This document shows positions 1 to 53,740 of a DNA stretch of 64,000 bases, in pieces (the first letter of the stretch is position 1; each line of letters starts with the position of its first letter). Both the position numbers and the translations under genes were made by a program. The stretch spans positions 7,261 through 71,260 of the forward strand of contig JBLNBQ010000061.1 of the NCBI GenBank assembly GCA_050260095.1, written 5' to 3'. Source of the stretch: Chitinophagales bacterium. Its GTDB lineage: Bacteria; Bacillota; UBA5301; DYFA01. A model generated the notes under the pieces. The model saw only the letters and a program-made list of their open reading frames with translations, was not told the DNA's origin and ran no database searches.

Positions 1-666
1 CAGGGCGCCTTCGCCTTCACCTGGTATCCCGAACCCTTTGAATCCCACGCCACCCTGGCTTATGCAGTCCCCGACGCCGAACTGGGCGCCGCCCAACTGC
101 TGCTTCAGAGCAGCCGTTCCACCACCTCCGGCGGCGAACTCTCAGGCCAGTCGTTGGGCTACGCCTGGGGGCGGCGCGTCGCCCCGCAACTGTCCGCCGG
201 CGTTCAACTCCGGTGGGACGTCCAGCAGGCGACCATCCAGGGGCTCCCCTCGCCGCAGGAGGCGGGCCTCGGCCTCGATGCCGGGTTGCTTTACGATGCG
301 GCGCCCGGCCTCTGGCTGGAGGCGGCCGTCCTCGACGCGTTCGACACGCGGCTGCGCTCCAGCTCAGGGACGACGATCCTTGTGAAGCAGCGCCTCTTCG
401 CCGGGGTGACCCGCCAGCTCCGGCCCGACCTTGCGCTCTCCTTCGCCGGACGGGACCTCACGACTGATCTGAACGGCGCGACCTGGTCTTTCGGCGGCCG
501 CCTCGAGCGCGCCGGCTGGATCTTCACGGGCGAGGCGGGCCTGGGGCCGCACTTCACCTGGTCGCTTGCCGCCCGGATGCCCCGCGGCCGCTGGAGCCTG
601 AGGGCGGTGGCCGAGGGGACGGAGGCGAAGGCCGGTTGCGGCCTCGGAGTGGACGTGCGGTGGTAG
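1..666 (+). CDS. Outer-membrane beta-barrel protein, C-terminal fragment (gene begins upstream of the window)
   Basis: Frame 1 is open from nt 1 to the stop at 666. Alternating amphipathic beta-strand-like segments and a C-terminal ...GLGVDVRW ending in an aromatic residue, as in OM beta-barrel proteins. Confidence 0.4.
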   Translation, partial: QGAFAFTWYPEPFESHATLAYAVPDAELGAAQLLLQSSRSTTSGGELSGQSLGYAWGRRVAPQLSAGVQLRWDVQQATIQGLPSPQEAGLGLDAGLLYDAAPGLWLEAAVLDAFDTRLRSSSGTTILVKQRLFAGVTRQLRPDLALSFAGRDLTTDLNGATWSFGGRLERAGWIFTGEAGLGPHFTWSLAARMPRGRWSLRAVAEGTEAKAGCGLGVDVRW

Positions 667-1793
667 CCCGGGCGGCGGGAGGAAGCGCCCGCCTGACTGC
701 GCCGCGGCTTGGCCTGTTCGACCGCTATGTCCTGCGGGAGTTCGCCGGCCCGTTCCTCTTGGCCATGTTCGCTGTGATCCTCCTGATGCTTTCCGATCAG
801 CTCTTCACGTTGGCCGACTGGCTGCTCGTCAAGCGGGCGCCCGCCGCGCAGGTCTGGCGGCTGCTGGCCTTTCGCCTGCCCGGGCTGTTGGTGCAGGCGC
901 TGCCCATCGCCGCCCTGGTCGGCGCCATGCTCGGCTTCCACCGTTTCTCCCGCGACTCGGAACTGGTGATCATGACGGGGAGCGGCGTCAGCCTGCGCCG
1001 GCTGGTCGCGCCCGTGCTCGCCGTGACCTTCCTCCTGTCGGTCGGCGCCTATTTCACCAACGAACTGGTCGTCCCCGCCGCCAACCACGAGGCGGAGAAC
1101 ACCGTCCGGCGCCTCGTCTTCTCGGAGGTCTCGCCCGAGATCCGGGAAGGCGTCTTCTTCCGCGGCCAGGACGACACCGTCTTCTACATCCGCAAGCTCG
1201 ACCGGGCGCACCTGCTCATGGAAGACGTGATGGTCTTCCAGATGGGCCAAAGCCCGTACCCGGAACTCATCACCGCCCGCACGGCCCGCTTCGGGGCGGG
1301 AATCTGGCACCTGGAGCAGGGGGTCAGCCGGGAGATCGACAAGGAAGGGTTCGTGACCAACGAGGCTCGCTTCAGCAGCCTCGACTTGCGGGTGGACGAG
1401 GGCGTCGACCGCTTCTTCGGCAACCAGAAAACCACCCAGGAGATGAGCCGCCGCGAACTGGCGTCGAACATTCGACTGTTCGGGCGGAGCGGGGTCGACA
1501 TCCGGCCGTTTCTGGTGGACTACCACCTGAAGCTGGCGATGCCGTTCGCCAACTTCTTCTTCACAGTGTTCGGCATCCCCCTGGCCCTTTGGGTGCTGCG
1601 CCGGCCGCGCTCGTCGCGCCTTCTGGGCATCGGCGGGACGGTCGTGCTGGTCCTGACCTACTACGTGCTGACGCCGCTCTGCCGCTCGCTGGGGGTCAAC
1701 GGCATCCTCACCCCCCTGACGGCGGCCTGGCTGCCTTCCCTGAGCTTCGCCGCCCTGGGCGCCTTCCTCTTCACCAGGCTGGAACAGATTTAG
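636..1793 (+). CDS. LptF/LptG-family (YjgP/YjgQ) LPS export permease
   Basis: Motif FDRYVLREF...LLMLSDQLF at the N-terminus and 6 TM segments with a periplasmic domain between TM3 and TM4. Paralogue of the permease at 22591. The true start may be downstream of 636 (non-ATG). Confidence 0.7.
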   Translation: MRPRSGRAVVARAAGGSARLTAPRLGLFDRYVLREFAGPFLLAMFAVILLMLSDQLFTLADWLLVKRAPAAQVWRLLAFRLPGLLVQALPIAALVGAMLGFHRFSRDSELVIMTGSGVSLRRLVAPVLAVTFLLSVGAYFTNELVVPAANHEAENTVRRLVFSEVSPEIREGVFFRGQDDTVFYIRKLDRAHLLMEDVMVFQMGQSPYPELITARTARFGAGIWHLEQGVSREIDKEGFVTNEARFSSLDLRVDEGVDRFFGNQKTTQEMSRRELASNIRLFGRSGVDIRPFLVDYHLKLAMPFANFFFTVFGIPLALWVLRRPRSSRLLGIGGTVVLVLTYYVLTPLCRSLGVNGILTPLTAAWLPSLSFAALGAFLFTRLEQI

Positions 1794-1816
1794 CGCTCGC
1801 AGAGGTAGCAGAGCAG

Positions 1817-2662
1817 ATGATGGTCACCGCCGGCCCGGCCGGCCGCAGAAAAGAGTGGAAAGGGCGCCTCCTGTCGGGGTGCCTGCTTGGGCTGGCCCTC
1901 TTGCTTCTGGCCGGGCGCCTGCCGGCGGCCGCCGCGGCGCCGTCCGCGTCCCCCGAGGCCCCGGTGGCGTCTGACGAAAAGCCTGCGGCCAGGGCGCCGG
2001 CTGATCCCGACACGGTGCAACTTAAGAGCGACGGCGGCTTCAAGTTCGACGCCGAGGCCCAGGTGCTGGTCGCCGAGGGGAATGTGCGCCTGGCGTACCG
2101 GAAGATCAGCCTGGCCGCCGACCGCTTCCGGGTCGACTTGGGGAAAGACCTGGTCCAGGCCGAGGGGCACGTGGTCTTCGTGAAAGGGAGCGACCGGGTC
2201 GAGGCCGCCTCGGGGGTTTACGATCTCAAGAACGAGTCCGGCACCTTCACCGGGGTCAACACCAGCTACCAGGGGGATCAGGTGAAAGGCAAGGTCCTGG
2301 TCACGGGCGAGTCAATGGAAAGCACCAAGTCGCTGTTGCGCCTCACCAAGGCCGACCTCACCACCTGCGACCTGCCCGACCCCCACTATCACCTCGAGGC
2401 CCGGGAGATCGTGATCCATCTCGACGATTACCTGGAGGCTCGCCAGGTCGCGTACTACGAAGGCCGCCTTCGCCTCGTGACGCTGCCTTACCTGGCGATC
2501 CCTCTGAGGAAGGAGAACCAGTTCGAACTGCCGCGGGTCGGCTACTCCAGCGAGGATGGGTGGTTCCTCAAGACCACCTACAACTACTTCCGCTCCAAGT
2601 CGGCGTTTGGGTCGTACTTCCTCGATTGGTACCAGCTCAAGGGGCTGGGCGCCGGGCTCTAG
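1817..2662 (+). CDS. lptD: LptD homologue, N-terminal OstA-like jellyroll part. It is in the same frame as 2765..4192 and separated from it only by one TAG at 2660-2662.
   Basis: Signal peptide (MMVTAGPAGRRKEWKGRLLSGCLLGLALLLLAGRLPAAAAA), OstA/LptA-like N-domain, TTCDLPDPHYHLEAREI motif typical of LptD. A GAGGT RBS lies 10 nt upstream of ATG 1817. Confidence 0.65.
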   Translation: MMVTAGPAGRRKEWKGRLLSGCLLGLALLLLAGRLPAAAAAPSASPEAPVASDEKPAARAPADPDTVQLKSDGGFKFDAEAQVLVAEGNVRLAYRKISLAADRFRVDLGKDLVQAEGHVVFVKGSDRVEAASGVYDLKNESGTFTGVNTSYQGDQVKGKVLVTGESMESTKSLLRLTKADLTTCDLPDPHYHLEAREIVIHLDDYLEARQVAYYEGRLRLVTLPYLAIPLRKENQFELPRVGYSSEDGWFLKTTYNYFRSKSAFGSYFLDWYQLKGLGAGL

Positions 2663-2764
2663 CACAACTACAGCTTCGGCAGCGCCTCCAGGGAGGGGAG
2701 CGGCTGGGCCTACCTTTACGTCAAGGGCGACCGCGCCAAGAACGACAACGACCTCTACCTGGGC

Positions 2765-4192
2765 TTGAATCACGCCCAGCAGTTCGGCGGGAGTTGGCGG
2801 GGGAATCTGGCCGGGACGTACGAGAAGAAGGCCGGCCAGGAGGCGCTCGGCAACTTCAGCCTCCAGGTGAGCCAACAGGCGGGGACCGGGGCGTATACGA
2901 GCCTGAGCACGGTCTACCGGCGACAGGCCGAGGACGCGCTGGGGAGCGCCAGCCTCTCCTTCAACACCGTGCAGCGGCTGCCGGGCAACTGGGAGTGGCG
3001 GTTCCTGGCGACGGGCAACCGCTATCCGCTGTCCACTGGGGAACCCGGCGAGGAGCGGCCCTACGACCAGGTGAGCTATGATACGACCCTGGCGCGGGAG
3101 TTCACTGACTTCACCCTGCGCCTCAGGGCGCGGCAGTCGTTCAAGCCGTCGCTGCTCAGCGTCGCGCCGTCCGGTTCCGACGAGCCGTGGGAGCGGTACA
3201 CCGACTTTCCCGAGGTGAGCGTGGAGAGCAGGAACCTGACCCTAAACGGGCGCCCGCTCCCCTTCACCCTGACCGGCAGCGTCTTCCGGCACGAGGAGTT
3301 TCGCAAGGTCTCGGTCTGGAACTCCGAAACCGGGACGTGGGACGGCCGGTGGACGCTCACCGACCTCGCCACCGGGTCGCTGTCGGGGCGCGTGAACGGG
3401 CTCTCGTACCGCGTGACCCCAAAGCTCACCGCGACCGTGAGCGGGGAAGGCCGGAGCATGTACTACCAGGACGGCGAATACACGATGGGCCTGAGCGTGC
3501 GGCCGGAGTTGACCTACCGGCCGGTTCAGCCGCTCGCCATGAGCTTGCGCTACGACTGGCAGGACAAGCTGGGCAGCAACCCCTTCTCGACCATCGGCAT
3601 GTTCCCGACCCGGATGCTCTACGGCTCCGCCACCTATACGGCCAGAGGGCTGACGGCCGATGTGAGCGCCAGCTACAACCAACTCACCGGCGACCTGCAG
3701 AACATGACCGCCCGGGTGAACTACGGCCGAACTCCCTTCACGGCGAGCGGGGCGCTCAGCTTCGCGGGGAGCGGCCTGGCCCAGACCACCCGGTTCCTGG
3801 GCACTCTGGCCTACCTGCCCAAAGAGACCCAGCAGTACCGCCTGGGGACCACCTACAACCTGGGAACCGACCAACTGGAACGGCTCGACGCGCAGGTCGC
3901 CCAACCCCTGGGCAAGGACTGGCGCGTGGAGCTGACCGCCAGCTACGATGGGGTCGCACAGAGTTTCAGCCGCGGCGAGGTCGGGGTGACCAGGGACATG
4001 CACTGCCGGGAGTTGCGCCTGAGCTACGACGAGGTGACCCGGCAGCTCTGGCTGGAACTGCAGATCAAGGCGTTGCCCGCCCAGCGCTTCCGATTCGGTG
4101 CGACGGAGCAGCGGCTGATGTTCGACACCTCCTCGCTCGGCGGGCTTCTCAGCGACACCGGCGGCAGCGGCGCGACGGGGGTGCCGCGATGA
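2765..4192 (+). CDS. lptD: LptD homologue, C-terminal beta-barrel part (continuation of the 1817 reading frame after the in-frame TAG). It has no signal peptide of its own, so probably one interrupted gene.
   Basis: Same frame as 1817..2662. The sequence between the TAG and the first possible start (HNYSFGSASREGSGWAYLYVKGDRAKNDNDLYLGL) still reads like LptD. Gly/Tyr/Thr-rich beta-strand pattern. The stop overlaps the next start (ATGA at 4189). Confidence 0.6.
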   Translation: MNHAQQFGGSWRGNLAGTYEKKAGQEALGNFSLQVSQQAGTGAYTSLSTVYRRQAEDALGSASLSFNTVQRLPGNWEWRFLATGNRYPLSTGEPGEERPYDQVSYDTTLAREFTDFTLRLRARQSFKPSLLSVAPSGSDEPWERYTDFPEVSVESRNLTLNGRPLPFTLTGSVFRHEEFRKVSVWNSETGTWDGRWTLTDLATGSLSGRVNGLSYRVTPKLTATVSGEGRSMYYQDGEYTMGLSVRPELTYRPVQPLAMSLRYDWQDKLGSNPFSTIGMFPTRMLYGSATYTARGLTADVSASYNQLTGDLQNMTARVNYGRTPFTASGALSFAGSGLAQTTRFLGTLAYLPKETQQYRLGTTYNLGTDQLERLDAQVAQPLGKDWRVELTASYDGVAQSFSRGEVGVTRDMHCRELRLSYDEVTRQLWLELQIKALPAQRFRFGATEQRLMFDTSSLGGLLSDTGGSGATGVPR

Positions 4193-4947
4193 AGGCCGGC
4201 GCCGGCCTTCCGGGCCGCCTGGCTTCTGGGCTGAGGCGACTGCTCTCTTCGGCCTGGTTCGGGGCCCTTTTGGCCTTGCTCGCCGTGGCGCTCGTCGCCT
4301 ATATCGGTCGGGCGCCGGCGCCGCCGCCCGGCAAGGAGCGGCCGGCAGGGGCGGAGGCCAGGGAGACGCCGGGCTTCCACTTCCGCGACATCCGCTTCGT
4401 CGGCCGGACGGCGGGCAAACGCGACTGGGAGTTGGAAGTGGCCAAGGTCACCGCCCCCCGCGACGGCGAGCGGGTGGATTTCTACTACGTTCGTCGGGGC
4501 GTGGTCTACCGGGAGGGGCAGCCCTACCTCAATTTGACCGCTGACGGAGGAGTGTACTACCCCCAACAGAACAATTTCCTGATGCGCGGCCACGTGGTGG
4601 TCTCCCGGGCCAACGGCGACCTCTTGCGGGGGGAGGAACTGCAGTGGAACCCGCTCACCCGCCAGGTGACGAGCCCTCAGCCGGTGGAGGCCAAGGTCGA
4701 AGGGATCTGGTTCAGGGCCAACCGCCTCGTGGTGGACGTCGAGACCGAGACGATGATCGCCTCGGGCCAGGTGGAGTTGGTCAAAGACAACGGCGAGCGG
4801 ATGACCGGCGACACCATCATCTATTCGCTCAAGGACGCGAAGTGGGAGATCCAGGGACCGGTCGAGTTCACGATCCGGCTCGGGGGCGACGATGAGGAAG
4901 CGTTCGTCGCGCCGGGCCTCGGTCAGACAAGGAGTGAACAGGAATGA
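4189..4947 (+). CDS. LptC-like protein (N-terminal TM anchor plus OstA-like fold)
   Basis: ATG 4189 overlaps the lptD stop. TM helix LLSSAWFGALLALLAVALVAYI followed by an OstA/LptC-like beta-jellyroll region. Only the C-terminal part of track ORF 3187..4947 is real. Confidence 0.55.
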   Translation: MKAGAGLPGRLASGLRRLLSSAWFGALLALLAVALVAYIGRAPAPPPGKERPAGAEARETPGFHFRDIRFVGRTAGKRDWELEVAKVTAPRDGERVDFYYVRRGVVYREGQPYLNLTADGGVYYPQQNNFLMRGHVVVSRANGDLLRGEELQWNPLTRQVTSPQPVEAKVEGIWFRANRLVVDVETETMIASGQVELVKDNGERMTGDTIIYSLKDAKWEIQGPVEFTIRLGGDDEEAFVAPGLGQTRSEQE

Positions 4948-5627
4948 CAGGGAGAAAGCGGTCCACACTGCTTCTGGTGCTGGTTCTGGGGCTGGTCGCC
5001 GGACCCCTCCCGGCCGCCCTGGCCGAGGAACTGGCGGCCAAACCGGCCGACCCGCCGAAAAAGGCCAGCGAACTGAAGGTCACGGTCAAGGAGAACAAGC
5101 TCTTCAAGTTCGAGAAGGATGTCGTCACCATCAAAGGCCAGGTGGAGATGGTCAAGGGCGACGTCCGGCTGAGCGCCGGCGACATCGTCTACGACGCCAA
5201 GAAGAAGTTCGCCGTGATCGCCGGGGGCGCCCGGATGGTGCAGGACGACCTCGCCCTGTCCGGCGAGAAGTTCTCCGCCTGGTTCGACGAAGAGCGGTAC
5301 GTCATCGAGACGAAAGTCAGCCTGAGCAAGAAGGACGCCACCGCGGAGAAGAAGGAGAAACTCGCGCTGACCTGCGACCGGTTAGAGTATCGCTCGGGCG
5401 ACAAGACCATGGTCGCCACCGGCAACGTGACCCTCAAGGAGAACGAACGGGTCGCCACCGCCCGCAAGGTCGAGTATCGCGACAAGGAGGCTAAGGTGGT
5501 GCTCGAAGGCGACGTCCTGATCAAGGAGAAGGACGACAAGACCATCCGGGGCGAGCGGTTCATCATCGACACGGACCAGAACGTGGTCGAGGCGGAGGGC
5601 CCGATGGAGATCGAGTTCAAGCTGTAA
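4944..5627 (+). CDS. LptA-like periplasmic OstA-fold protein
   Basis: Signal peptide, then repeated beta-jellyroll motifs (VTIKGQVEMVKGDVRLSAGDIVYD...LEGDVLIKEKDDKTIRGERFIID) as in LptA. ATGA overlap with the upstream gene. Confidence 0.6.
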   Translation: MTGRKRSTLLLVLVLGLVAGPLPAALAEELAAKPADPPKKASELKVTVKENKLFKFEKDVVTIKGQVEMVKGDVRLSAGDIVYDAKKKFAVIAGGARMVQDDLALSGEKFSAWFDEERYVIETKVSLSKKDATAEKKEKLALTCDRLEYRSGDKTMVATGNVTLKENERVATARKVEYRDKEAKVVLEGDVLIKEKDDKTIRGERFIIDTDQNVVEAEGPMEIEFKL

Positions 5628-5677
5628 GACCTTGCCATTCTCCGCGCCAATTGGCGAGGGAAGCGGCATCTAGCTGG

Positions 5678-5686
5678 TGTTATAAT
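5678..5686 (+). promoter_or_regulatory. Extended -10 promoter element TGtTATAAT
   Basis: TGTTATAAT lies in the 90-nt gap before the 5719 gene. A near-identical GGTGTTATAATG element sits upstream of lptC at 20464. Confidence 0.3.
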
Positions 5687-5718
5687 GGTGCGCAGGCGGA
5701 TCGGAGGAGGTCGACGCT

Positions 5719-8277
5719 TTGCGCGCCAGTCTGGCTCACAGCTTCACACCGCTCCGGGACGGCTTCACCGCTGACCTCGCGCGGCTCACGGTGGTCACCG
5801 TACTCGTCCTGTCGCTCCTCGCGGCGGCGACAGCCTGGGCGGTCGACGCCTTCTTCGGGCGGACCGTCTCGGGGCTGGTGGGTCGCGCCGGGGAGAACGA
5901 CTTCGTCCTTTACGTGCGCTCCGACAGCAAGAGCCGCGCCGAGCAGCGGCTCGCGACCTACCTGCCCAAGACCTTCCCCGGCGCCACGTTCAAACCCGGC
6001 CTGACCGTCGCGGGCCAGGCCAATTTCTTCGTCACCCTCCCCGAGGCTTACCGGACCCGTTCCGTCATGGAGAACATCGACAGCACTTTCGGGAGCCTGC
6101 CGGGGTACTCCGGCCACCTCCTGCTCATCGAGCCGAGCATCTTCGTGCACGGCATTCCCGCCGGCGCGTACCGGTTCTTCCTCGACAAGTTTCAGGACCT
6201 GCCGGGGGTGAAGTTGACCTTCGCCAGCGGCCAGGACCTTGTGGTCGCGCTGCAGAAGGGCGGGCGCCCGGAGGACGTCGAGCCGCTGATCAAAAAGGTG
6301 CTGAGCCAGTACCGGGTGGTGGAAGCGCGCTTCCCGATGGGCTACAAGGTGAGCGACCTCGATCGGGTGGGCGCCCAGGCTGCAGCCGCGGCGCAGGCGA
6401 GCCTAAAGGTTCCGGTGACCGACGTGACCCAGAGCGACAAGCAGGATGACTACAGCTCCTTCCTGGGCGCGCTGGTCGAGATGCGCCGGTTCCTGCTCAG
6501 CTACGCTTCGGACATCACCATCAAGCTGGGCCCGGCGGCGTCCCTGCGGAAGGGCGACGAGCTGGTGGCCGGCGCCGGCCTCACCCAAGGGGGGCGCATC
6601 GGTGACCAGGCCCTCCGCATCCTCGTCACCGGGGTCGACGGCGACGTCGCTCACGGGGTGGCGGTGCAGGGCGACACCACGCCTCCGGGTGGGGCGAAGG
6701 CCGCCAAGGCGGCGGCCGACGGCCGGGGCACGCTGATCCCGGCGGGCATGGCCTATCGCGCCCGGCCCAACAACCGGGTGGGCGCGCCGGTCGGCCCGGC
6801 GACCATCCACAACCAGCGCTATGCCCTGATGGCGACTGTCGACGAGAGCGTCAAGCTCCTGAGCCAGCTCCAACTGCTGGCCAAGCACGCCGACACGACC
6901 GCCGCCCGGGTGCAACTGACGCTCGACTCGTTCCAGCAGACCATGAACCGCATGACCGAGGTGCAGTCGGCCCTCGATGGGGTGAAGCGGGGCCTCGCCG
7001 GGCCGCTGGACGGGCTCGGAAAGGTGCAGACGGACAGCCTGGTCGCGGTGTTGAACAAGACGGTGGGGGCCATCGACGACCTGCTCGACCGGATGAACGG
7101 GGTGACCGATGCCAAGGCGGCGATGGACCTGGCCGCCGGCGCCGCGCATCTCCCGCCGGGGACGGATGCGGGGGGTGGCGCCGAGGCGGCGGCCGGGCTG
7201 GGCGCCCAGGGCGCCGGGCTGCCCGGACAGGCGGGGGCGTCGGCCGCCGAGTTGCAGGCCCAGATGGCTGGCCTCTCCTCCACGGCGGCCCAGCAGACCG
7301 ACGCCCTTTCCCAGATCATCGGGAACCTGAATCCGGTCAGCCTGCTGCTGCTCAAGTGGCGGGCCCAGGTGCAGACCACCGCCCTGCAGGTGCAGAACTT
7401 CGGCCTGCTCGCCAAGAACGCGGGCGCGGTCAACGAGTTCATCGACGGCCTGAGCGGCGCCACCGACACCACCGTGGCGGAGATGCAGAAGGTGGACGTG
7501 ACCGGCCTCAAGAGCAGCCTGCAGGAGATTTCGCAGCGGCTCGAAGCCATCGCCCGGATCGACGTGGGGTCCGTCACCAAACAGATGACCTACGTGAAGG
7601 ACTCCCTGCCCAACGTGAAGGACGACCAGCTCGGCCGGTCGGTGCGACTCATCGACCGCTACATCGGCGGCGAGGTGATCCCGGGCGAGCGGCTCCAGTT
7701 CCTGGTGCCGGGCAGCGTGCCGGCGCAGGCGGCCACGGCGGCGGTGAAGAAGGCGGTCGGCGACAACGCCTCCGTGTCGGTGCTGCCGTCGGGTTCGCTG
7801 AAGCCGGACCTCCAGGGTCTCCTCTTCCAGCTGCTCGGGAAGGTCCGGAGCACGGTGGCGGGTCTGATCGCCCTTGGCCTGGTCATGGCCACCCTGGTGC
7901 TCGACCACGCCGTGGTGATCGCGACGCTCTCCAGCGCCGCCCGGGGCCGGCGGTCCGCGATGGTGGCCGGCGTGGTTTATGGCGGGGTGGCCGGAGCCAC
8001 ACTACTTGGGAGCGTCTTCCTCCTCTCCGGGGCGGGCTTCCCGCTCCTGGGCTGGCCGGGCGTCTTCGCCCTCGGCGCCGGCCTGGGAATGTTCGTCGCC
8101 GTCCTGGCCAGGCGGCTGGCCCCCGTCAACCTCGGCGAACTCGAAGCGGGCGAGGCGATGGGCCTGAGCTACGCCAGGATCCTCCGGGAGATCATCATCC
8201 CCGAAGGACGACCCGGGCTGCTCCTGCTCCTGAACCGCAGCAGCATGCTCTTTCCGAGGGAGGCGAGGCAGGCATGA
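5719..8277 (+). CDS. Membrane protein with N-terminal TM anchor, ~620-aa extracytoplasmic coiled-coil-rich domain and C-terminal 3-TM bundle. An FtsX/MacB-like topology with an EAA-like cytoplasmic motif. Putative permease partner of the downstream ABC ATPase.
   Basis: TTG start 5719 with a GGAGGAGG RBS. One N-terminal TM, a long Ala/Gln/Leu-rich heptad region, three C-terminal TMs, a tail ...RRLAPVNLGELEAGEAMGLSYARILREIIIP (EAA-like), and an ATGA overlap with the ATPase gene. Confidence 0.55.
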   Translation: MRASLAHSFTPLRDGFTADLARLTVVTVLVLSLLAAATAWAVDAFFGRTVSGLVGRAGENDFVLYVRSDSKSRAEQRLATYLPKTFPGATFKPGLTVAGQANFFVTLPEAYRTRSVMENIDSTFGSLPGYSGHLLLIEPSIFVHGIPAGAYRFFLDKFQDLPGVKLTFASGQDLVVALQKGGRPEDVEPLIKKVLSQYRVVEARFPMGYKVSDLDRVGAQAAAAAQASLKVPVTDVTQSDKQDDYSSFLGALVEMRRFLLSYASDITIKLGPAASLRKGDELVAGAGLTQGGRIGDQALRILVTGVDGDVAHGVAVQGDTTPPGGAKAAKAAADGRGTLIPAGMAYRARPNNRVGAPVGPATIHNQRYALMATVDESVKLLSQLQLLAKHADTTAARVQLTLDSFQQTMNRMTEVQSALDGVKRGLAGPLDGLGKVQTDSLVAVLNKTVGAIDDLLDRMNGVTDAKAAMDLAAGAAHLPPGTDAGGGAEAAAGLGAQGAGLPGQAGASAAELQAQMAGLSSTAAQQTDALSQIIGNLNPVSLLLLKWRAQVQTTALQVQNFGLLAKNAGAVNEFIDGLSGATDTTVAEMQKVDVTGLKSSLQEISQRLEAIARIDVGSVTKQMTYVKDSLPNVKDDQLGRSVRLIDRYIGGEVIPGERLQFLVPGSVPAQAATAAVKKAVGDNASVSVLPSGSLKPDLQGLLFQLLGKVRSTVAGLIALGLVMATLVLDHAVVIATLSSAARGRRSAMVAGVVYGGVAGATLLGSVFLLSGAGFPLLGWPGVFALGAGLGMFVAVLARRLAPVNLGELEAGEAMGLSYARILREIIIPEGRPGLLLLLNRSSMLFPREARQA

Positions 8278-9170
8278 CGAGTCCGGCGACCGTCCGTCCC
8301 ATCCTCGAGGTGCGCGGCCTGTGCAAGCGCTACGGTGAGACCCCGGTGCTGGCCGGGCTCGACCTAGCCGTGCCAGCCGGCCAGACGCTGGTCATCATGG
8401 GTCCGAGCGGGTGCGGGAAGTCGACCTTTGTGCGCTGCGTGAACCGCCTGCTGCAGCCCGATGCCGGCCAGGTGCTGGTGGAGGGCGTCGACCTCCTGGC
8501 GCTCGACCCGCCGGCCCTGCAGGCGGCGCGGCGGCGCATCGGGTTCGTCTTCCAGCATTCGAACCTGGTGCAGCGCCTGACCGCCTGGCAGAACGTCGCG
8601 CTGGGCCTGATCAGCGCCGGCGTGCCGCGGGAGGACGCCCATGAGCGCGCAGTGGCGGCGCTGGGCCGGGTGGGGCTGGCGGCGAAGGCCGACCGCCGTC
8701 CCGGCCAGCTCTCCGGCGGCGAGCAGCAGCGGGTGGGCATCGCCCGTGCTTTGGCCCTCTCGCCGGCCCTCATGCTCTGGGACGAACCGACCGCCGCCCT
8801 CGACCCGCTGCTGGTGCGGGAGGTGCTCGACGTCATGGAGGAACTCGTGCAGAGCCGCGACCGCACGATGGTCGTGGTCACCCACGAGGTCTCCTTCGCC
8901 CTGCGGGCGGCCGACCGGGTGGTGCTCATGGACCAGGGGCGCGTCGTCGAGGATGGCGCGCCGGAGGAAGTTTTCGGCGCTCCGACCTCGCTGCTCGGAC
9001 AGAGATACCGCCACCTCCTCGAGAGTCTGCCGGCCTTGCCCGGGGAGGGTAAGGCGAGGGCTGGAAAAGGATTCCCTGGGACAGGGGCGAATAACCAACA
9101 ATCGTCCCGCTCCAAGGACATGTCCTCGGCGGCCCGGCGGCCGCAAGGGGGTCATTGCGTTGGCAGTTGA
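8274..9170 (+). CDS. ABC transporter ATP-binding protein (importer-type, GlnQ/MetN-like)
   Basis: Walker A GPSGCGKST, signature LSGGEQQRVGIARAL, Walker B LMLWDEPTAALDP, H-loop VTHE. C-terminal ~55-aa low-complexity extension. Confidence 0.8.
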   Translation: MTSPATVRPILEVRGLCKRYGETPVLAGLDLAVPAGQTLVIMGPSGCGKSTFVRCVNRLLQPDAGQVLVEGVDLLALDPPALQAARRRIGFVFQHSNLVQRLTAWQNVALGLISAGVPREDAHERAVAALGRVGLAAKADRRPGQLSGGEQQRVGIARALALSPALMLWDEPTAALDPLLVREVLDVMEELVQSRDRTMVVVTHEVSFALRAADRVVLMDQGRVVEDGAPEEVFGAPTSLLGQRYRHLLESLPALPGEGKARAGKGFPGTGANNQQSSRSKDMSSAARRPQGGHCVGS

Positions 9171-10014
9171 ACAGGTGACTGATCAAGCGACCCTGGCCCG
9201 GCCCGTGGCGCTCGAGGGGATCGGCCTGCACTCCGGCAAGCCGGTCCGCCTCACGCTGGAGCCGGCGCCGCCCGGAACGGGCTTCCGGTTCGTGCGAGCC
9301 GACCTGCCTGGCGAACCGGTGATCCAGGCTTCGCCCGAGGCGGTCTGCCGGACGAACTTCTGCACGACCCTGGGCGACGGGCACGGCGCGGAGGTGTCGA
9401 CCACCGAACATCTGCTGGCCGCGCTGCGGGGGCTGGGCGTCGCCAACGCCATCCTGCGGCTCACCGGCCCTGAGGTGCCGCTGGGCGACGGCAGCGCGGC
9501 TGTCTTCGCCCGGTTGGTGGCCGAGGCGGGGGTCAAGGGGCAGGGCGAACCGCTGCCGGTCCTCACCCTGGACCGCCCGGTGGCGGTCAGGGCAGGGGAC
9601 GCCGCCCTGGTGGCCGTGCCGGCGCGCCAGGCTCGCTTCTCCTACGTCTTCACCCATCCTCACCCGGTGGTCGGCGTGCAACTCGCCGAGTTCGTTCCGG
9701 GGGAGGATTCCTTTTGCGACGAGGTGGCGCCGGCGCGCACCATCGGTTTTTTGGCCGACATCGAACGGATGCGCGCCCAGGGCCTGGCGCTGGGCGGCAG
9801 CCTTGAATGCGCGGTGGTCATCGGCGAGGAGGGCTACGCCGGCGAGGTGAGGTTCCCCAACGAGCCGGCCCGCCACAAGCTGCTTGACCTGGTCGGCGAT
9901 CTGGCGCTCATCCCGCCGGTCATGGCGCATGTGATCGGCCTGCGGTCGGGGCATGCGCTCAACTCCGCCCTCGCGACGGCGATCCTTGCGGCGGCGCGGT
10001 TGACCGTCGGATAA
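9160..10014 (+). CDS. lpxC: UDP-3-O-acyl-N-acetylglucosamine deacetylase
   Basis: Alignable along its length with E. coli LpxC ([51 protein letters not shown]). Start TTG 9160 or GTG 9175. Confidence 0.85.
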
Positions 10015-14805: not shown

Positions 14806-16556
14806 TGGACCGCCGGGCGACCGGGCTCCGCCTGTTGTCCTACATCCGGCCGTACCTGCGCCCCTTCCTCACCGCCCTCTTCGCGATGGTGGTCCTGGCG
14901 GCGATCAACCTCTCCGTCCCATACCTCTTCGGCCAGACCCTCATCGACCGCATCCTGCTGCAGACCAGGAGCCGCACCTACCTCACGCTCCTGGCCGTCG
15001 GGATCGTCTTCCTCTACGTGGTGCGGGGCCTTTTCATGTACGGCTACACCTATTTGACCTCGTTCGTGGGCTTCCGCGTGGTCACCGACCTGCGCCGGGC
15101 CCTCTTCGTCAAGATGCAGGATCTCTCGCTCGCCTTCCACGAACGCCACCGGACCGGGGAACTCATCGCCCGGGTGACGAACGACACCATGCTCGTCCAC
15201 CAGGCGGTGGCCATGGGGCTGGGCGACCTCCTTCTCCAGGGTCTCCAGCTGAGCGGCACCCTGGTCGCGGTCTTCCTGCTCCATTGGCGTCTCGCCCTGA
15301 CGGCGATCGTGGTCTTCCCCCTGATGGCGCTGGTGATCAACCGGTTCGGACGGGTCATCCGCCGGGCCAGCCGCAACATGCAGGAGCGGGTCGCCGAGTT
15401 GACCACCGTGCTGCAGGAGGCGCTCGCCGGCATCCGGATCGTCAAGGCCTTCACCATGGAGGAGCACCAGGCGGACCGCTTCACGCGGCAGAACGAGGCG
15501 AGCTTCGGGGCGAGCCTGAAGAGCGCGCAGGTGGGGGCGACCCTCTCGCCCACCGTCGATTTCCTCTTCGTGACCGCCGTGGCGCTGGTCCTTTGGTTCG
15601 GCGGTTCGGAAGTGCTCGCCGGGCGGCTCACCACCGGGAAGCTGATCGCCTTCTTCGGCTACCTGGCGCTGGCGGCGAACCCGCTCGCCGCGCTCTCCCG
15701 GGTCTACCAGGCGCTCCAGCAGGCGCTGGCCGCCGGCGAACGCATCTTCTCGATCCTCGACGCGGAGCCGGAGGTGGGGGAGAAGCCCGGGGCGAAGCCG
15801 CTGCCGCCCCTGGCAGGCCGGGTCGTCTTCGAGCAGGTGAGCTTCGCCTACGGCGACGGCCCGCCGGTGCTCTCCGGGATCGACCTTACCGTGGAGCCGG
15901 GGAAGGTGGTCGCCCTCGTCGGTCCGAGCGGGGCGGGGAAGACCACCCTCGTCAACCTGTTGCCGCGCTTCTATGACCCGACCGGCGGGCGGATTCTGGT
16001 GGACGGGCACGACCTGCGCGAGGTCACCTTGGAATCGCTCCGCCGGCAGGTCGGGGTCGTGCCGCAGGAGACGATGCTCTTCGGCGTGACGGTCCGCGAG
16101 AACATCGCCTTCGGCCGGCCCGGCGCGTCGGAGGAGGAGATCGTCGCGGCCGCCAAGGCCGCCAACGCGCACGATTTCATCCTGGGCCTGCCGCAAGGCT
16201 ACGACACCGTGCTGGGGGAGCGGGGCGAGAGCCTCTCGGGCGGTCAGCGCCAGCGCATCGCCATCGCCCGGGCGCTTCTGCGCGATCCCCGCCTGCTCAT
16301 CCTCGACGAGGCCACCTCGGCCCTCGACACGGAGGCGGAGCGGGTGGTGCAGGAGGCGCTCGAACGCCTGATGCGGGGGCGCACGACCTTCGTCATCGCC
16401 CACCGCCTGTCGACGGTGCAGTTTGCCGACCAGATCGTCGTGTTGTCGGGAGGAAAGATCGTGGAAGCCGGAACGCACCAGGCCTTGCTGGAGCGGGGCG
16501 GACTCTACCGGCGCCTCTATGACCAGCAGTTTCGGGGGGAGGAGCCTTCAGCATGA
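14805..16556 (+). CDS. msbA: Lipid A/ABC exporter, fused permease-ATPase (MsbA-like)
   Basis: 6-TM exporter domain plus NBD with GPSGAGKTT, LSGGQRQRIAIARAL, ILDEATSALD. Embedded in the lpx operon. Confidence 0.8.
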   Translation: MDRRATGLRLLSYIRPYLRPFLTALFAMVVLAAINLSVPYLFGQTLIDRILLQTRSRTYLTLLAVGIVFLYVVRGLFMYGYTYLTSFVGFRVVTDLRRALFVKMQDLSLAFHERHRTGELIARVTNDTMLVHQAVAMGLGDLLLQGLQLSGTLVAVFLLHWRLALTAIVVFPLMALVINRFGRVIRRASRNMQERVAELTTVLQEALAGIRIVKAFTMEEHQADRFTRQNEASFGASLKSAQVGATLSPTVDFLFVTAVALVLWFGGSEVLAGRLTTGKLIAFFGYLALAANPLAALSRVYQALQQALAAGERIFSILDAEPEVGEKPGAKPLPPLAGRVVFEQVSFAYGDGPPVLSGIDLTVEPGKVVALVGPSGAGKTTLVNLLPRFYDPTGGRILVDGHDLREVTLESLRRQVGVVPQETMLFGVTVRENIAFGRPGASEEEIVAAAKAANAHDFILGLPQGYDTVLGERGESLSGGQRQRIAIARALLRDPRLLILDEATSALDTEAERVVQEALERLMRGRTTFVIAHRLSTVQFADQIVVLSGGKIVEAGTHQALLERGGLYRRLYDQQFRGEEPSA

Positions 16557-17659
16557 AAGCGATGATCCTGGCGGCGGGTGTGGGATCCCGCCTCGACCCA
16601 TTGACCGCCAACCTGCCCAAACCGATGGTGCCCATCGTCAACCGCCCGGCGATGGAACACATCCTGGCGCTCCTGCGAGTCCACGGGGTGACCGAGGTGG
16701 TGGCCAACCTCTGGTACCGTCCGGAGAGCATCACCTCCTACTTCGGCGACGGACAGTCCTTCGGGGCGCGGCTGACCTACTCGAAGGAGGACACCTTGCT
16801 CGGCACGGCCGGCGGGGTGAAACGGGTGGCCGGCTTCTTCGACGGCACCTTCCTCGTGATTGCCGGCGACGCCCTGACGGACATCGACCTTGGCGCCATG
16901 TTGGCCTTCCACCGGCAGCGGGGGGCGCTGGCGACCATCGCGCTCCGGCCGGTGGACGACCCCCGGCACTTCGGCGTCGTGGTGACGGGCGAGGACGGCC
17001 GCATCACCGGCTTCCAGGAGAAGCCGCGGCCGGAGGAGGCGCTCTCCCGCCTTGCCAACACGGGCATCTACCTCTTTGAGCGGGAGGTGCTCGACCTGAT
17101 CCCGGCCGGCGAGGTGTACGACTTCGGCAAGCAGCTCTTCCCGCGCCTGGTCGCCGAAGGGCAGCCCTTCTACGGCTATCGCATGGACGGCTACTGGTGC
17201 GACGTCGGCACGCTGCTCCAGTACCGGCTCGCCCACCAGGACGTGCTGCACGGGCTGGTCCGCCTGCACACGCCCGGGGTCGCGGTGCCCAGCGCCGAGC
17301 GGCCGGTGGTCCTCGGGGAGGGCGCTGTGGTCGAACCGGGCGCCGTCTTGCAGGGACGGGTCATCGTGGGCCCCGGCGCGCGCGTTTCGGCCGGCGCCCG
17401 CCTGCTCGGCGACGTGGTTCTGGGTGCGGGGGTGAAGGTCGGCGAAGGGGCCACGGTGGAAGCGAGCGTCCTGTGGGCCGGCGCCTCGCTCGGCGCCGAG
17501 TGCCGGGTCTCGCAGGCCGTGATCGGACAAGATTGCCGGATCGAGCCGGGCGCGGCGGTGGGCGAGGGGAGCGTGCTCTCCGACACCTGCGTCGTGCAGG
17601 CCTGGGCGGAGGTGGCGGCCGGGTCGATCCTCCGTCCTGGAGAGGTCGTCGGCCGGTGA
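16553..17659 (+). CDS. Sugar-phosphate nucleotidyltransferase with C-terminal left-handed beta-helix (mannose-1-P guanylyltransferase/GlmU-like)
   Basis: MKAMILAAGVGSRLDPLT...PKPMVPIV NTP-transferase motif and C-terminal hexapeptide repeats. ATGA overlap with msbA. Confidence 0.7.
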   Translation: MKAMILAAGVGSRLDPLTANLPKPMVPIVNRPAMEHILALLRVHGVTEVVANLWYRPESITSYFGDGQSFGARLTYSKEDTLLGTAGGVKRVAGFFDGTFLVIAGDALTDIDLGAMLAFHRQRGALATIALRPVDDPRHFGVVVTGEDGRITGFQEKPRPEEALSRLANTGIYLFEREVLDLIPAGEVYDFGKQLFPRLVAEGQPFYGYRMDGYWCDVGTLLQYRLAHQDVLHGLVRLHTPGVAVPSAERPVVLGEGAVVEPGAVLQGRVIVGPGARVSAGARLLGDVVLGAGVKVGEGATVEASVLWAGASLGAECRVSQAVIGQDCRIEPGAAVGEGSVLSDTCVVQAWAEVAAGSILRPGEVVGR

Positions 17660-27679: not shown

Positions 27680-29218
<1,539 letters not shown>

Positions 29219-29245
29219 GCGTAAGGCGCCCGGAGGTGAAATAGC

Positions 29246-30247: not shown

Positions 30248-30269
30248 TTTCTGCAGTTGGGGAGGTTAG

Positions 30270-32139
<1,870 letters not shown>

Positions 32140-32197: not shown

Positions 32198-32441
32198 CGC
32201 GCGCCCAGTGCAAGCCTTCGTCTACTAGCTGGTGAAAGTCCAGCCGGGGTAAGGGCCAAGCCGCCCCGTAGCTGACCACCGGTGGAAGCGAAGTTGTGGG
32301 AGGCCGGCGGGGCGACCCCGCCTCCTACCCGATCGGCGCGTGCGCCGGCAGGTATGCGCCGTCCAGCCAGCGAATATTTCCCTGCGCAGGGAATGGAAGG
32401 TGGCCGCGGTGCAGGGCCGAAAGGCGGGGCTCAGGGCACTG

Positions 32442-35395: not shown

Positions 35396-37024
35396 ATGAG
35401 CGTGCGCCGGGGGAGACTTGCCAACCGGTCCTTACTGCCAGGCCTGTTCGCCCTGGCGCTGTTCCTGCTGCCCTTAAGCGGCCCGGCCCGCGCCGCCGCG
35501 GCCGACTTCCAGCTCTCCGCCGACAGTATCGAGCACGACCTGGGCGCCGGGATCGTCACGGCGTCTGGCGGCGTCAGAGTCCAGCTCGCAGAGATGGAAG
35601 CGCGCGGAAACCTCCTGCGCGCAGACCTGAGCACCCATATACTCTCCATGGAGGGTCCAGTCCTCGTCGCCACCCCCTCCGGCGCGGTGCAGGGGGAGGA
35701 TCTGCGCTACGCCTGGGATCAGCGAACCGGCAGCCTACGAAACGCTCAGTTCGCCAGCGAGGGCGTGAGGTTCAGCGGGGGGGAGGCTGAGTTCGCTGCC
35801 AGTAGCTGGACCTTGCACGATGGCCTGCTCACGAAGTGCGTCTATCCCACGCCGGAGTACGCGCTGCAAGCCAGGGAGATTGCCGTCGACCCCGAGCGGC
35901 AGGTCGCCTACATCCGGGGCGGGCGCCTCGCCTTGTTCGGACACACCATCCTCCCGCTGCCGAATCTGCGCCTCTCGCTCCAGGATACGGAGATCGGCCG
36001 GCTCAGCCGGGGCAATCTCCCGGTGCCGGAGACGGGCTACGATTCCGAGCGCGGCTACTTCCTGGCGCAACGACAGCCGCTCTACCTCTCCGACACCACC
36101 TTCGTCCTGGCGCAGGCTGGGTACGGTTCCGAAGAGGGAGCGCGCCTCGGTCTCTCCGGCCTCTATACGCCTTCTTCTGCCGCCGCCTACCGCTGGGATC
36201 TCGTGTACCAGCAGCGCCCGCCCGTGGCCGACGGCCTGATCCGGGCCGAGGCTGCGCCGGCAATCCACGGGACGGCGGAGTACGAACTCAAAGACGCCGC
36301 CGGCCGGCTCAAGCTCGGCGTCGAGAAGAAAGACGACGAGGCCCGGCGCGACCTCACCTTCCTACCCCGGGTCGAGGTGTCCCCCCGCCCCGTGACCGTG
36401 GCCGGCGTCACGCTCGTGCCCACCTTAGAATGGGCCAATATCCAGGAGGAAGCCAGTGGACAGGCGGCGACGCGCACCCTGGCCGGCCTCTCCTGGTCGG
36501 CTGCGCCGCGGCTCAGCTTGCCGTTCGCCCTGACCTTCTCCGGCGCCGAGAAGCAGACTTGGTACGGCACGGGCGAGGCGCTGACCACCCGCGTCCTCTC
36601 GGGCGCCGTCACCCAGCCGCTCACCGAGGCGCTGCGACTCCAAACCGGCGTGAACGTCCGGCAGTATACCGGCCGGACTCCGTTCGTCTTCGACCAGCCA
36701 GACCGTTACTCCGAAGGCGAGGTGGGGCTAGCCTGGCAATCGGGGGGCAACACGCTTTATGGCGCCGCCGCCTACGACTTGGCCGGGTGGGGAACCGCCG
36801 ACGGCACCCGCGCCTTGCCGGGGCAACCCGCCGCACTCAAAGCCAGCGCCATCCTGGCCTCGGAAGGCTGGCGCGCCAGCGCTGAGGTCCGGTACGAACT
36901 GGGCGAGAAACCGCACTACTCGACTGCTGAACTTGAGCTCACTCGGGTGCTCCACTGCTTCGAGGTGACGCTGAGTGCGGAGCCAGTCGAGAAGAAGATC
37001 GCTTTTGAAGTGAGTTTCCGTTAG
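35396..37024 (+). CDS. Second, shorter LptD-like outer-membrane protein (OstA-like N-domain plus beta-barrel)
   Basis: Strong RBS AGGGGAGGAGGAG, signal peptide ...LLPLSGPARAAAA. TKCVYPTPEYALQAREIAVDPERQVAYIRGGRLALFGHTILPLPNL parallels the LptD motif TTCDLPDPHYHLEAREIVIH...LVTLPYLAIPL of the 1817 gene. Ends ...FEVSFR. Confidence 0.5.
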   Translation: MSVRRGRLANRSLLPGLFALALFLLPLSGPARAAAADFQLSADSIEHDLGAGIVTASGGVRVQLAEMEARGNLLRADLSTHILSMEGPVLVATPSGAVQGEDLRYAWDQRTGSLRNAQFASEGVRFSGGEAEFAASSWTLHDGLLTKCVYPTPEYALQAREIAVDPERQVAYIRGGRLALFGHTILPLPNLRLSLQDTEIGRLSRGNLPVPETGYDSERGYFLAQRQPLYLSDTTFVLAQAGYGSEEGARLGLSGLYTPSSAAAYRWDLVYQQRPPVADGLIRAEAAPAIHGTAEYELKDAAGRLKLGVEKKDDEARRDLTFLPRVEVSPRPVTVAGVTLVPTLEWANIQEEASGQAATRTLAGLSWSAAPRLSLPFALTFSGAEKQTWYGTGEALTTRVLSGAVTQPLTEALRLQTGVNVRQYTGRTPFVFDQPDRYSEGEVGLAWQSGGNTLYGAAAYDLAGWGTADGTRALPGQPAALKASAILASEGWRASAEVRYELGEKPHYSTAELELTRVLHCFEVTLSAEPVEKKIAFEVSFR

Positions 37025-37174
37025 AACATCGCGCAGCCCTCGCGCCGTTCCTTATCGCGGGTTCATCCCTGGCGGCACAGATTCCCTGGCGAATGGTGCT
37101 TGCCACTCGCAAGAGGTGAGCCTCCGGGTGCAGGCGAACTAACGAGTGAAATGCCGAGGAAAGGCAGGAGCGGA

Positions 37175-39514: not shown

Positions 39515-39570
39515 TCCCCGTCCTGTTCACCGTGGACCAGGGTAACGCTACGCAGTGGGAGGCTTGCCGC

Positions 39571-42766: not shown

Positions 42767-42839
42767 GCCGTTTCCTCTCCGCAGGAGATATCCCCCTCGA
42801 CACGAAGTAATGTTATCCTGGAGGAAAGGCCAAGGGGGT

Positions 42840-43910: not shown

Positions 43911-43946
43911 CGCTTAGGGCGCGCACGGTCAGAGAGGAGCCGGAAG

Positions 43947-44417: not shown

Positions 44418-44420
44418 GCG

Positions 44421-45431: not shown

Positions 45432-45443
45432 GGAGTGGTGGAG

Positions 45444-46331: not shown

Positions 46332-46349
46332 GACACGGAGGCTGTTGCA

Positions 46350-47471: not shown

Positions 47472-47594
47472 GCGCGCCACCCTCCTGCCACCATGCAAGG
47501 TTCCTCCAGTGGAGGAATCTTTTATTCTCCGCCGAAAGACAAGCAATCGAGGAATTCTTCTACTTTCCGGTTCGACGGGAAAGGGCGGACGCCG

Positions 47595-48797: not shown

Positions 48798-48800
48798 GCG

Positions 48801-49777: not shown

Positions 49778-49845
49778 GACCCGGATCCGAAGCAAAGCAC
49801 GGACGCGTGAATAGCGCCCTGACGGGCCAAAAGGAGTGCATCCAG

Positions 49846-53724: not shown

Positions 53725-53740
53725 AAACGGAGGGCTTTGG

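What the first reader, a model, noticed from the sequence alone, without database searches (positions are those of the whole stretch)
2600..2770. lptD reading frame interrupted by a single in-frame TAG
Frames 1817..2662 and 2765..4192 are the same frame, separated only by TAG at 2660-2662. The translated sequence on both sides (…WYQLKGLGAGL * HNYSFGSASREGSGWAYLYVKGDR…) reads as one continuous LptD. The downstream part has no signal peptide or convincing start/RBS of its own. This is either a nonsense-mutated (pseudogenised) essential OM LPS insertase, a base-call error, or stop-codon read-through. A second, intact LptD-like gene at 35396 could compensate.
Basis: seen in the sequence. Interest (0 to 1): 0.55.

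Follow-up and report, generated by a model that had tools for sequence, protein, structure and literature searches.

The report
One-base premature stop in lptD
A gene for the outer-membrane lipopolysaccharide insertase LptD is cut in two by one A-to-T base change that turns a conserved lysine codon into a stop; other assemblies of the same species carry the intact gene, so this is an ordinary private mutation or consensus error, not a new coding mechanism.

Summary
TAG at 2660-2662 is the only interruption of a 791-codon frame (1817-4192). GenBank annotates the two halves as separate hypothetical proteins.

The gene is a divergent LptD. It sits between lptF/G and lptC-lptA, and its predicted structure matches solved LptD structures (Foldseek E 1e-24).

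All nine orthologues are continuous and have Lys at this position. The closest relative uses AAG. Two independent assemblies of the same species (99.9% nt identity) encode a 791-aa protein identical to the window's translation except for Lys282. The TAG is therefore a single A-to-T change at nt 2660, seen only in this assembly.

The downstream part shows no decay: dN/dS is about 0.2 on both sides, and it differs from the intact allele by two synonymous changes only. TAG ends about 20 other likely genes in the window. No Pyl-tRNA gene, no unusual RNA structure and no restart signal is present.

- **Most likely (about 0.55):** a very young nonsense allele present in one sample's population.
- **Main rival (about 0.35):** a consensus or base-call error.
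- **Unlikely:** recoding, a split gene or an old pseudogene.

Only read-level data can separate the first two. Interest is low.

The parts
1817..2662 (+). N-terminal fragment of lptD, 281 codons plus TAG. It holds the signal-peptide-like N-terminus, the beta-jellyroll and the first barrel strands. GenBank annotates it as hypothetical protein ACM3RP_04260.
   Evidence: P0023; weak LptD_N hit; NCBIfam LptD model over residues 74-250; AF2 strands 67-229
2660..2662 (+). Premature TAG at codon 282. T2660 replaces the A of AAG (Lys), which is conserved in all orthologues.
2663..4192 (+). Remainder of the lptD frame, 509 codons plus TGA, encoding most of the beta-barrel. GenBank annotates it from TTG 2765 as hypothetical protein ACM3RP_04265.
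   Evidence: (P0002)
660..1793 (+). lptF/lptG-family permease gene immediately upstream. It ends in a genuine TAG.
   Evidence: PF03739, E 6e-84
4189..4947 (+). lptC-like gene. Its start overlaps the lptD stop by 4 nt.
   Evidence: PF06835, E 4e-11
4944..5627 (+). lptA-like gene (OstA / LptD_N domain).
   Evidence: PF03968, E 1e-12
35396..37024 (+). Shorter LptD-like paralogue, 542 aa, intact (ACM3RP_04415).
   Evidence: hhalign 97% over the N-terminal ~240 aa; best fold hits LptD, E 2e-14, low TM

Best explanation
The gene 1817-4192 is the LptD of a high-GC bacterium with an outer membrane, probably a diderm Bacillota. LptD is the outer-membrane beta-barrel that receives lipopolysaccharide from the LptC-LptA bridge and inserts it into the outer leaflet. 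In this assembly one base, T2660, replaces the A of the conserved Lys282 codon AAG and creates TAG. I judge this most likely a real, very recent nonsense allele carried by DNA molecules of the population in one sample (the SRR24035586-type haplotype), which the MAG consensus picked up. Translation would stop after residue 281. The product would be a periplasmic jellyroll plus a few barrel strands, without most of the barrel and without the C-terminal cysteine (C730). It could not form the translocon. The downstream 509 codons have no start, RBS or signal peptide and would not be expressed usefully. Shown: the one-base difference, the conserved Lys, the intact allele in two sibling samples, and the absence of decay. 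Inferred: that the T is in real molecules and is not an error, and that the allele is null.
For: Orthologues:
- All nine have Lys at the site and are continuous.
- The closest relative (74% aa identity) has AAG there and the same lptFG-lptD-lptC order.

Same species:
- An intact 791-aa allele, P0024, is identical to the window's translation except K282. It occurs in two independent assemblies, SRR24035587 and SRR24035588.
- Window versus those contigs: 99.9% nt identity and no indels.
- Over 21.3 kb compared with seven independent contigs there are 19 SNVs: 14 synonymous, 4 conservative missense and 1 nonsense. This is the signature of real polymorphism under purifying selection, not random error.
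- The window-specific synonymous alleles T3079 and T3106 are reproduced exactly in an independent assembly of SRR24035586. L018 and L019 are 100% identical to the window. The window's haplotype in this gene is therefore real.

No decay: dN/dS against the orthologue is 0.22 upstream and 0.19 downstream of the stop, so the change is very recent.

LptD identity:
- The AF2 model (pLDDT 78) shows a jellyroll plus a large barrel.
- The top 37 PDB fold hits are all LptD, best E 1e-24.
- Distant phmmer hits carry PF04453 and PF03968.
Against: - The T allele is seen only in this one deposited assembly.
- The independent assembly of the matching sample has a gap (window 2202-2684) exactly over the site, so T2660 is unconfirmed.
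- LptD is essential in most studied LPS-producing bacteria (my own knowledge) and is under strong purifying selection here. A null allele as the dominant genotype is therefore unlikely a priori.
- Sequencing platform and coverage of the MAG are not known to me.
Confidence: 0.55

Rival explanations
1. Technical artefact. T2660 is a base-call, PCR-duplicate or assembly-consensus error in a low-coverage stretch of the MAG, and the organism's gene is intact AAG.
For: - The TAG is found in one assembly only. Two sibling assemblies have AAG and an otherwise identical protein.
- The gene is strongly constrained and shows no decay.
- Independent contigs from the matching sample are short (1.9-2.9 kb) and break around the site, at 2201 and 2685. 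This suggests low or uneven coverage there.
- The window has one further private allele (G53992) that even the matching sample's independent contig does not share.
Against: - The assemblies agree without a single indel over 21 kb, and their differences are overwhelmingly synonymous. The consensus is accurate and its differences look biological.
- De Bruijn assemblers need the erroneous k-mers in several reads, and those k-mers must outcompete the true path. This rests on general knowledge, not a test here.
- The other private allele (53992) is synonymous.
Confidence: 0.35
2. The TAG is decoded, by pyrrolysine insertion, a suppressor tRNA or programmed read-through, so a full-length LptD is still made.
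For: - The stop replaces a lysine codon, and pyrrolysine is a lysine derivative. The frame is perfectly preserved downstream.
- The base after the stop is C, which is a weak termination context in E. coli (my recollection of the termination-context literature; not checked here).
Against: - No relative has TAG here. All have Lys or AAG.
- TAG ends about 20 of the roughly 55 likely genes in the window, including lptF/G immediately upstream. 9 of 20 genuine TAG stops are also followed by C.
- The only tRNA call in the window is a Ser tRNA.
- The downstream RNA folds no better than shuffled sequence (z +0.95). There is no Rfam element in 1-10000.
Confidence: 0.04
3. A long-standing pseudogene. LptD has been lost in this lineage and its role taken over by the 542-aa LptD-like paralogue at 35396-37024.
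For: An intact LptD-like paralogue exists next to an O-antigen-ligase-like gene.
Against: - Downstream dN/dS is 0.19, with no frameshifts or further stops. The protein is identical to the intact allele.
- Two of three samples of the same species have the intact gene.
- Relatives with an intact 791-aa LptD also keep the paralogue. P0005 and P0041 both come from JGI and both list a longest contig of 850,528 bp, apparently the same contig. The paralogue is therefore not a replacement.
Confidence: 0.03
4. A genuinely split gene: the jellyroll and the barrel are made as two separate functional proteins.
For: GenBank annotates two ORFs.
Against: - The break falls inside a predicted barrel strand (residues 276-287), not at the domain boundary.
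- The second ORF has no RBS and no signal peptide, and it would lose 34 conserved residues.
- No orthologue is split.
Confidence: 0.01

Closest known systems
LptD (Imp/OstA), the outer-membrane LPS translocon of Proteobacteria (e.g. PDB 4q35, 5iv9, 4rhb)
   Same: - Signal-peptide-like N-terminus, periplasmic beta-jellyroll, then a very large C-terminal beta-barrel.
- Best structural matches over the full length are LptD chains (E 1e-24, TM 0.44-0.51).
- It is encoded with lptF/G, lptC and lptA.
- A conserved Cys closes the jellyroll (C184) and another lies near the C-terminus (C730). This recalls the inter-domain disulfides of E. coli LptD (my own knowledge).
   Different: - Only 11-13% sequence identity to solved LptDs.
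- No Pfam PF04453 hit. The LptD_N hit is below cut-off.
- The NCBIfam LptD models score 31 bits against cut-offs above 900.
- No PDB hit by sequence profile.
- No LptE was looked for.
Strain-specific nonsense alleles or 'internal stop' pseudogene calls in bacterial genomes and MAGs
   Same: A single substitution creates a stop in an otherwise intact ORF. The annotation pipeline splits the gene into two hypothetical proteins. Sibling genomes are intact.
   Different: The gene hit is one that is normally indispensable, and no decay has followed. It is therefore not an established pseudogene.
Pyrrolysine (UAG) recoding in Bacillota and Deltaproteobacteria
   Same: An in-frame UAG in a Bacillota-like genome, at a position where relatives have lysine.
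   Different: No pylT in the window. UAG is a frequent genuine terminator here. There is no conserved UAG in orthologues. The gene is not a methylamine methyltransferase or any other known Pyl protein.

Membership tests
LptD (LPS-assembly outer membrane protein) | N-terminal OstA/LptD_N beta-jellyroll domain (PF03968) | tested here: met
   By sequence the evidence is weak: Pfam E 0.0023, 18.6 bits against a cut-off of 20.4, and the NCBIfam LptD model covers residues 74-250 at E 7e-8. The AF2 model shows about 12 consecutive strands at 67-229, and full-length LptD chains are the best fold matches.
LptD (LPS-assembly outer membrane protein) | Sequence match to the C-terminal LptD barrel family (PF04453) at the curated threshold | tested here: not met
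   No Pfam hit for the full-length protein or for the C-terminal part. No NCBIfam hit for the C-terminal part. Homology shows only indirectly, through phmmer hits (E 6e-20 to 1e-4) to proteins that carry PF04453.
LptD (LPS-assembly outer membrane protein) | Very large C-terminal beta-barrel fold joined to the jellyroll | tested here: met
   AF2 model, pLDDT 78, with strands from 240 to 750. The top 37 Foldseek PDB hits are all LptD. E is 1e-24 to 1e-18 for the full-length chains, TM 0.38-0.51 across all 37 is not computed; for full-length chains it is 0.38-0.51.
LptD (LPS-assembly outer membrane protein) | Genomic association with other Lpt components | tested here: met
   lptF/G lies upstream, and lptC and an lptA-like gene lie downstream, in the window and in L001, L002 and L003.
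LptD (LPS-assembly outer membrane protein) | Inter-domain disulfide between the N-terminal domain and the barrel C-terminus | not testable with these tools
   C184 is invariant and C730 nearly invariant in the family alignments. This is consistent with such a bond but does not prove it.
LptD (LPS-assembly outer membrane protein) | LPS insertion activity and an LptE-like plug partner | not tested
   No LptE search was done. Activity needs an experiment.
Established (decaying) pseudogene | Relaxed selection or additional disabling lesions downstream of the first lesion | tested here: not met
   dN/dS is 0.19 downstream against 0.22 upstream. The downstream 509 residues are identical to the intact allele, with only two synonymous differences.
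Established (decaying) pseudogene | The lesion is shared by other genomes of the lineage | tested here: not met
   Two same-species assemblies and all nine orthologues are intact.
Pyrrolysine / UAG recoding | pylT (tRNA-Pyl, CUA anticodon) and pylSBCD genes | tested here: inconclusive
   There is none in the 64-kb window. The only tRNA call is Ser-CGA. The rest of the genome is not available.
Pyrrolysine / UAG recoding | UAG avoided as a terminator; in-frame UAG conserved in orthologues | tested here: not met
   About 20 high-GC3 ORFs in the window end in TAG. Orthologues have Lys or AAG.
Programmed stop-codon read-through | Conserved stop plus a stimulatory downstream context or structure | tested here: not met
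   The stop is not conserved. The downstream 100 nt fold no better than shuffles (z +0.95). The +4 C is shared by 9 of 20 ordinary TAG stops.

The most novel reading that the evidence does not exclude
The nonsense allele is real and dominant in one natural population. In that case this LPS-producing diderm Bacillota-like bacterium would tolerate loss of its canonical LptD. Tolerance could come from the conserved 542-aa LptD-like paralogue at 35396-37024, or from low-level UAG read-through that inserts Lys, Gln or Tyr.
Probability: 0.12. Interest if true: 0.45.

Novelty: already known. Interest (0 to 1): 0.12.

Why it matters
Mainly for annotation quality. GenBank carries two 'hypothetical proteins' (ACM3RP_04260 and ACM3RP_04265) that are really one LptD gene with a single-base lesion. 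Automated envelope or metabolic inference from this MAG would miss LptD.

The family itself is a divergent LptD lineage of diderm Bacillota-like MAGs. Pfam and NCBIfam barely detect it, so a dedicated model would improve annotation.

If the null allele proved real and dominant, it would be a small natural experiment on whether LptD is dispensable outside Proteobacteria. Nothing here suggests a new coding mechanism.

Tried and rejected
- **Genetic-code or TAG reassignment:** rejected, because TAG ends many likely genes in the window, including the gene immediately upstream.
- **Same-frame ORF pairs separated by one stop across the window:** many exist in this 68% GC sequence. Those checked have their own start and RBS, so they do not indicate a general read-through pattern.
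- **JGI metagenome scan** with GCCGGGCTCNNNCACAACTACAGC: no match.
- **GTDB representative genomes:** only distant relatives at 51% identity or less were found. The source species is not represented.
- **Exact look-up of the 475-aa fragment:** not on record.
- **Recovering the missing SRR24035586 contig over the site:** I guessed fragment boundaries (2204-2662 and 2174-2662) and found nothing. This is uninformative.
- **PDB by sequence profile:** no hit. **Pfam on the full-length protein:** no hit.
- **Rfam on 1-10000:** no hit. **RNA fold downstream of the TAG:** not better than chance.
- **852-aa ORF downstream of lptA:** tested as another LptD relative and found unrelated (hhalign probability 0.1%).
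- **Literature on PRJNA950955 (PMC13001172):** it describes an Illumina HiSeq paddy-soil metagenome from which a related MAG (L005) was binned. I could not establish that the window's MAG or the runs SRR24035586-88 belong to it.

Full report
**1. The observation**

The window is 64 kb at about 68% GC. TAG lies at 2660-2662. It is in frame with ATG 1817 and with the TGA at 4190-4192, and it is the only stop in 792 codons. The first in-frame start codon after it is TTG 2765, and there is no Shine-Dalgarno-like sequence in the 20 nt before it.

**2. The source record**

Exact look-ups show the window comes from a 77,614-bp contig of an NCBI MAG labelled 'Chitinophagales bacterium'. There the two halves are annotated as separate hypothetical proteins: ACM3RP_04260 (281 aa, P0023) and ACM3RP_04265 (475 aa from TTG 2765, P0002).

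**3. What the gene is**

- **Context.** Upstream lies an LptF/LptG-family permease gene (PF03739, E 6e-84). Downstream lie lptC (PF06835) and an lptA-like gene (PF03968), with a 4-nt overlap between the lptD stop and the lptC start. The same order occurs in the closest relative (L001) and in same-species contigs (L002, L003).
- **Sequence evidence is weak.**
  - LptD_N scores 18.6 bits, below Pfam's cut-off.
  - There is no PF04453 hit.
  - An NCBIfam LptD model covers only residues 74-250, at 31 bits.
  - A family profile finds nothing in the PDB by sequence.
  - phmmer does link the protein, at E 6e-20 to 1e-4, to proteins that carry PF04453, PF03968 or PF19838.
- **Fold evidence is clear.**
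  - An AlphaFold2 model of the intact allele (mean pLDDT 78) shows an N-terminal helix at 14-32. Read by eye, this has a signal-peptide-like sequence (RRK, a hydrophobic core, AAAAA).
  - It then shows a jellyroll of strands at 67-229 and a very large barrel from 240 to 750.
  - Foldseek against the PDB returns LptD chains as the top 37 hits, best E 1e-24 and TM about 0.5 over roughly 800 columns.
- **Cysteines.** C184 at the end of the jellyroll is invariant and C730 near the C-terminus is nearly invariant. This recalls the inter-domain disulfides of E. coli LptD (my own knowledge, not tested).

I therefore file the gene as a divergent LptD on fold and context, not on curated sequence thresholds.

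**4. What the TAG replaces**

Nine orthologues align across the site without a gap, and every one has Lys there (motif G-L-K-H-N/D-Y). They are 49-74% identical to the window's protein and 620-791 aa long; one is a partial record.

The closest relative uses AAG, flanked by identical codons CTC and CAC AAC TAC AGC.

The 90%-identity cluster that holds the two GenBank fragments also holds a 791-aa protein, P0024. It is identical to the window's conceptual translation except for K at 282. It is encoded on two independent Logan assemblies, SRR24035587 (L002) and SRR24035588 (L003). Both have A where the window has T at 2660.

The lesion is therefore one A-to-T transversion, AAG to TAG.

**5. Age of the lesion**

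Against the L001 orthologue, dN/dS is 0.22 upstream and 0.19 downstream of the stop. Amino-acid identity is 73% upstream and 75% downstream. Relative to the intact same-species allele, the downstream 509 codons carry only two synonymous differences, TAT/TAC at 3079 and ACT/ACC at 3106. Nothing has decayed. If the change is real, it is very young.

**6. Real allele or artefact?**

I recovered seven independent contigs of the same species from three consecutive runs, SRR24035586, -87 and -88. Together they cover 21.3 kb of the window. Two further SRR24035586 contigs, L018 and L019, followed.

- **No indels.**
- **19 substitutions:** 14 synonymous, 4 conservative missense and the one nonsense. 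That spectrum fits real polymorphism under purifying selection, not random error.
- **Haplotype match.**
  - Contigs from SRR24035586 match the window exactly: L013, L014, L018 and L019 are 100% identical, and L017 has one mismatch.
  - The match includes T3079 and T3106.
  - So the window's haplotype in this gene is independently reproduced.
- **The gap.**
  - In that sample's independent assembly lptD is fragmented. L019 ends at window 2201, and L018 runs from 2685 to 5370.
  - T2660 falls in the 483-nt gap and is neither confirmed nor refuted.
  - Two guessed look-ups of the missing fragment found nothing.

Short-read de Bruijn assemblies rarely fix substitution errors (general knowledge), and the surrounding differences look biological. 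I therefore favour a real variant present in molecules of that sample (about 0.55) over a consensus or base-call artefact (about 0.35). Only read-level data can settle this.

Against a real variant: the T allele is seen only in this assembly, the gene is strongly constrained, and the short contigs suggest low coverage.

**7. Alternatives that involve decoding**

- TAG ends about 20 of the high-GC3 ORFs in the window, including lptF/G at 1791-1793.
- 9 of 20 such TAG stops are followed by C, as the internal one is.
- The only tRNA call in the window is Ser-CGA.
- The 100 nt after the stop fold no better than shuffled sequence (z +0.95).
- No Rfam family matches in 1-10000.
- No orthologue has a stop at this position.

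Pyrrolysine, suppression and programmed read-through are therefore unsupported, at about 0.04 together.

A genuinely split gene is also contradicted. The break lies inside predicted strand 276-287 of the barrel. The second ORF lacks a start signal and a signal peptide. No relative is split.

**8. The paralogue**

ORF 35396-37024 (542 aa, ACM3RP_04415) aligns with the LptD family profile over its N-terminal ~240 residues (hhalign probability 97%, 29% identity). It keeps the two cysteine motifs, as read from the sequence. Its model (pLDDT 70) has LptD as best fold match (E 2e-14), but with TM of only about 0.3.

It has orthologues at 44-50% identity in related MAGs. One of them, P0041, shares its source (JGI) and its longest-contig length (850,528 bp) with the full-length LptD orthologue P0005, so the two are apparently on the same contig. 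The paralogue is thus a conserved, distinct gene that coexists with an intact LptD. Whether it could compensate is unknown.

**9. Consequence if the allele is real (inference)**

Termination after residue 281 would release a secreted jellyroll with a few barrel strands. That product cannot form the translocon or the C184-C730-type link. The rest would not be translated or exported. This would be a null allele of a gene that is essential in most studied LPS producers (my own knowledge).

**10. Verdict**

It is ordinary: a one-base lesion private to a single assembly, in an otherwise intact, selectively maintained, divergent lptD. The practical value is in correcting the annotation. Interest is low.

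Noticed in passing
window 35396-37024 (+): A second, shorter LptD-like protein (542 aa) with a jellyroll-like N-terminus, both conserved Cys motifs and LptD as best fold match. It lies next to an O-antigen-ligase-like gene (37100-38365, Wzy_C) and downstream of a porin-like gene (32340-34208). It is conserved in relatives that also have the 791-aa LptD, so these bacteria carry two LptD-type barrels.
   Followed up: partly
window 5719-8277 (+): An 852-aa ORF at the end of the lptFG-lptD-lptC-lptA cluster. It has coding-like GC3 (0.92) and is conserved in L002 and L003. It has no Pfam or NCBIfam hit and no relation to the LptD profile. Function unknown.
   Followed up: partly
whole window (source record): The NCBI record is labelled 'Chitinophagales bacterium'. 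The LptD relatives, however, are MAGs mostly labelled Bacillota or Firmicutes, and the ATP synthase beta subunit clusters at 90% identity or more with a 'Bacillota bacterium' protein. At 68% GC and with an LPS-transport gene cluster, a diderm Bacillota (Limnochordia-like) origin seems more likely. The taxonomic label looks wrong. Related MAGs labelled 'Betaproteobacteria bacterium' (P0007, P0043) look similarly mislabelled.
   Followed up: partly
window 42726-49472 (+): Seven consecutive ORFs, including dTDP-rhamnose pathway genes such as the 3,5-epimerase and the 4,6-dehydratase, all lie in the same reading frame and are separated only by single stops and short gaps. Each has a candidate start codon close to the preceding stop, most with a plausible RBS, and two of them are annotated as separate genes at NCBI. 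This appears to be coincidence and not one interrupted gene.
   Followed up: partly
window 39532-40875 (+), C-terminal ~30 codons: The S-adenosylmethionine-synthetase-like protein ends in a histidine-rich tail ([29 protein letters not shown]). This looks like a metal-binding extension.
   Followed up: no
window 8469-8562 (+): ARAGORN calls a 94-nt tRNA-Ser (CGA). Rfam at gathering threshold reports nothing in 1-10000, and the position lies inside an ORF called as a gene in L002 and L003 (window ~8274 onward). The tRNA call is doubtful.
   Followed up: partly
window 1-8736, 16389-18760, 28768-30766, 48338-56536 versus L002, L003, L013-L019: Microdiversity among three consecutive SRA runs of the same species: 19 SNVs in 21.3 kb, 14 of them synonymous, and no indels. 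The window's haplotype matches run SRR24035586. The window-specific alleles at 3079, 3106 and 5384 are all GC-to-AT changes to rare codons.
   Followed up: yes
window 49600-56540 (+): A Tad/Flp-type pilus locus. It has two tandem Flp/Fap pilin genes, a prepilin peptidase, TadE, RcpC and a secretin, and a CpaF-family ATPase gene lies further downstream at 57613-58998.
   Followed up: no
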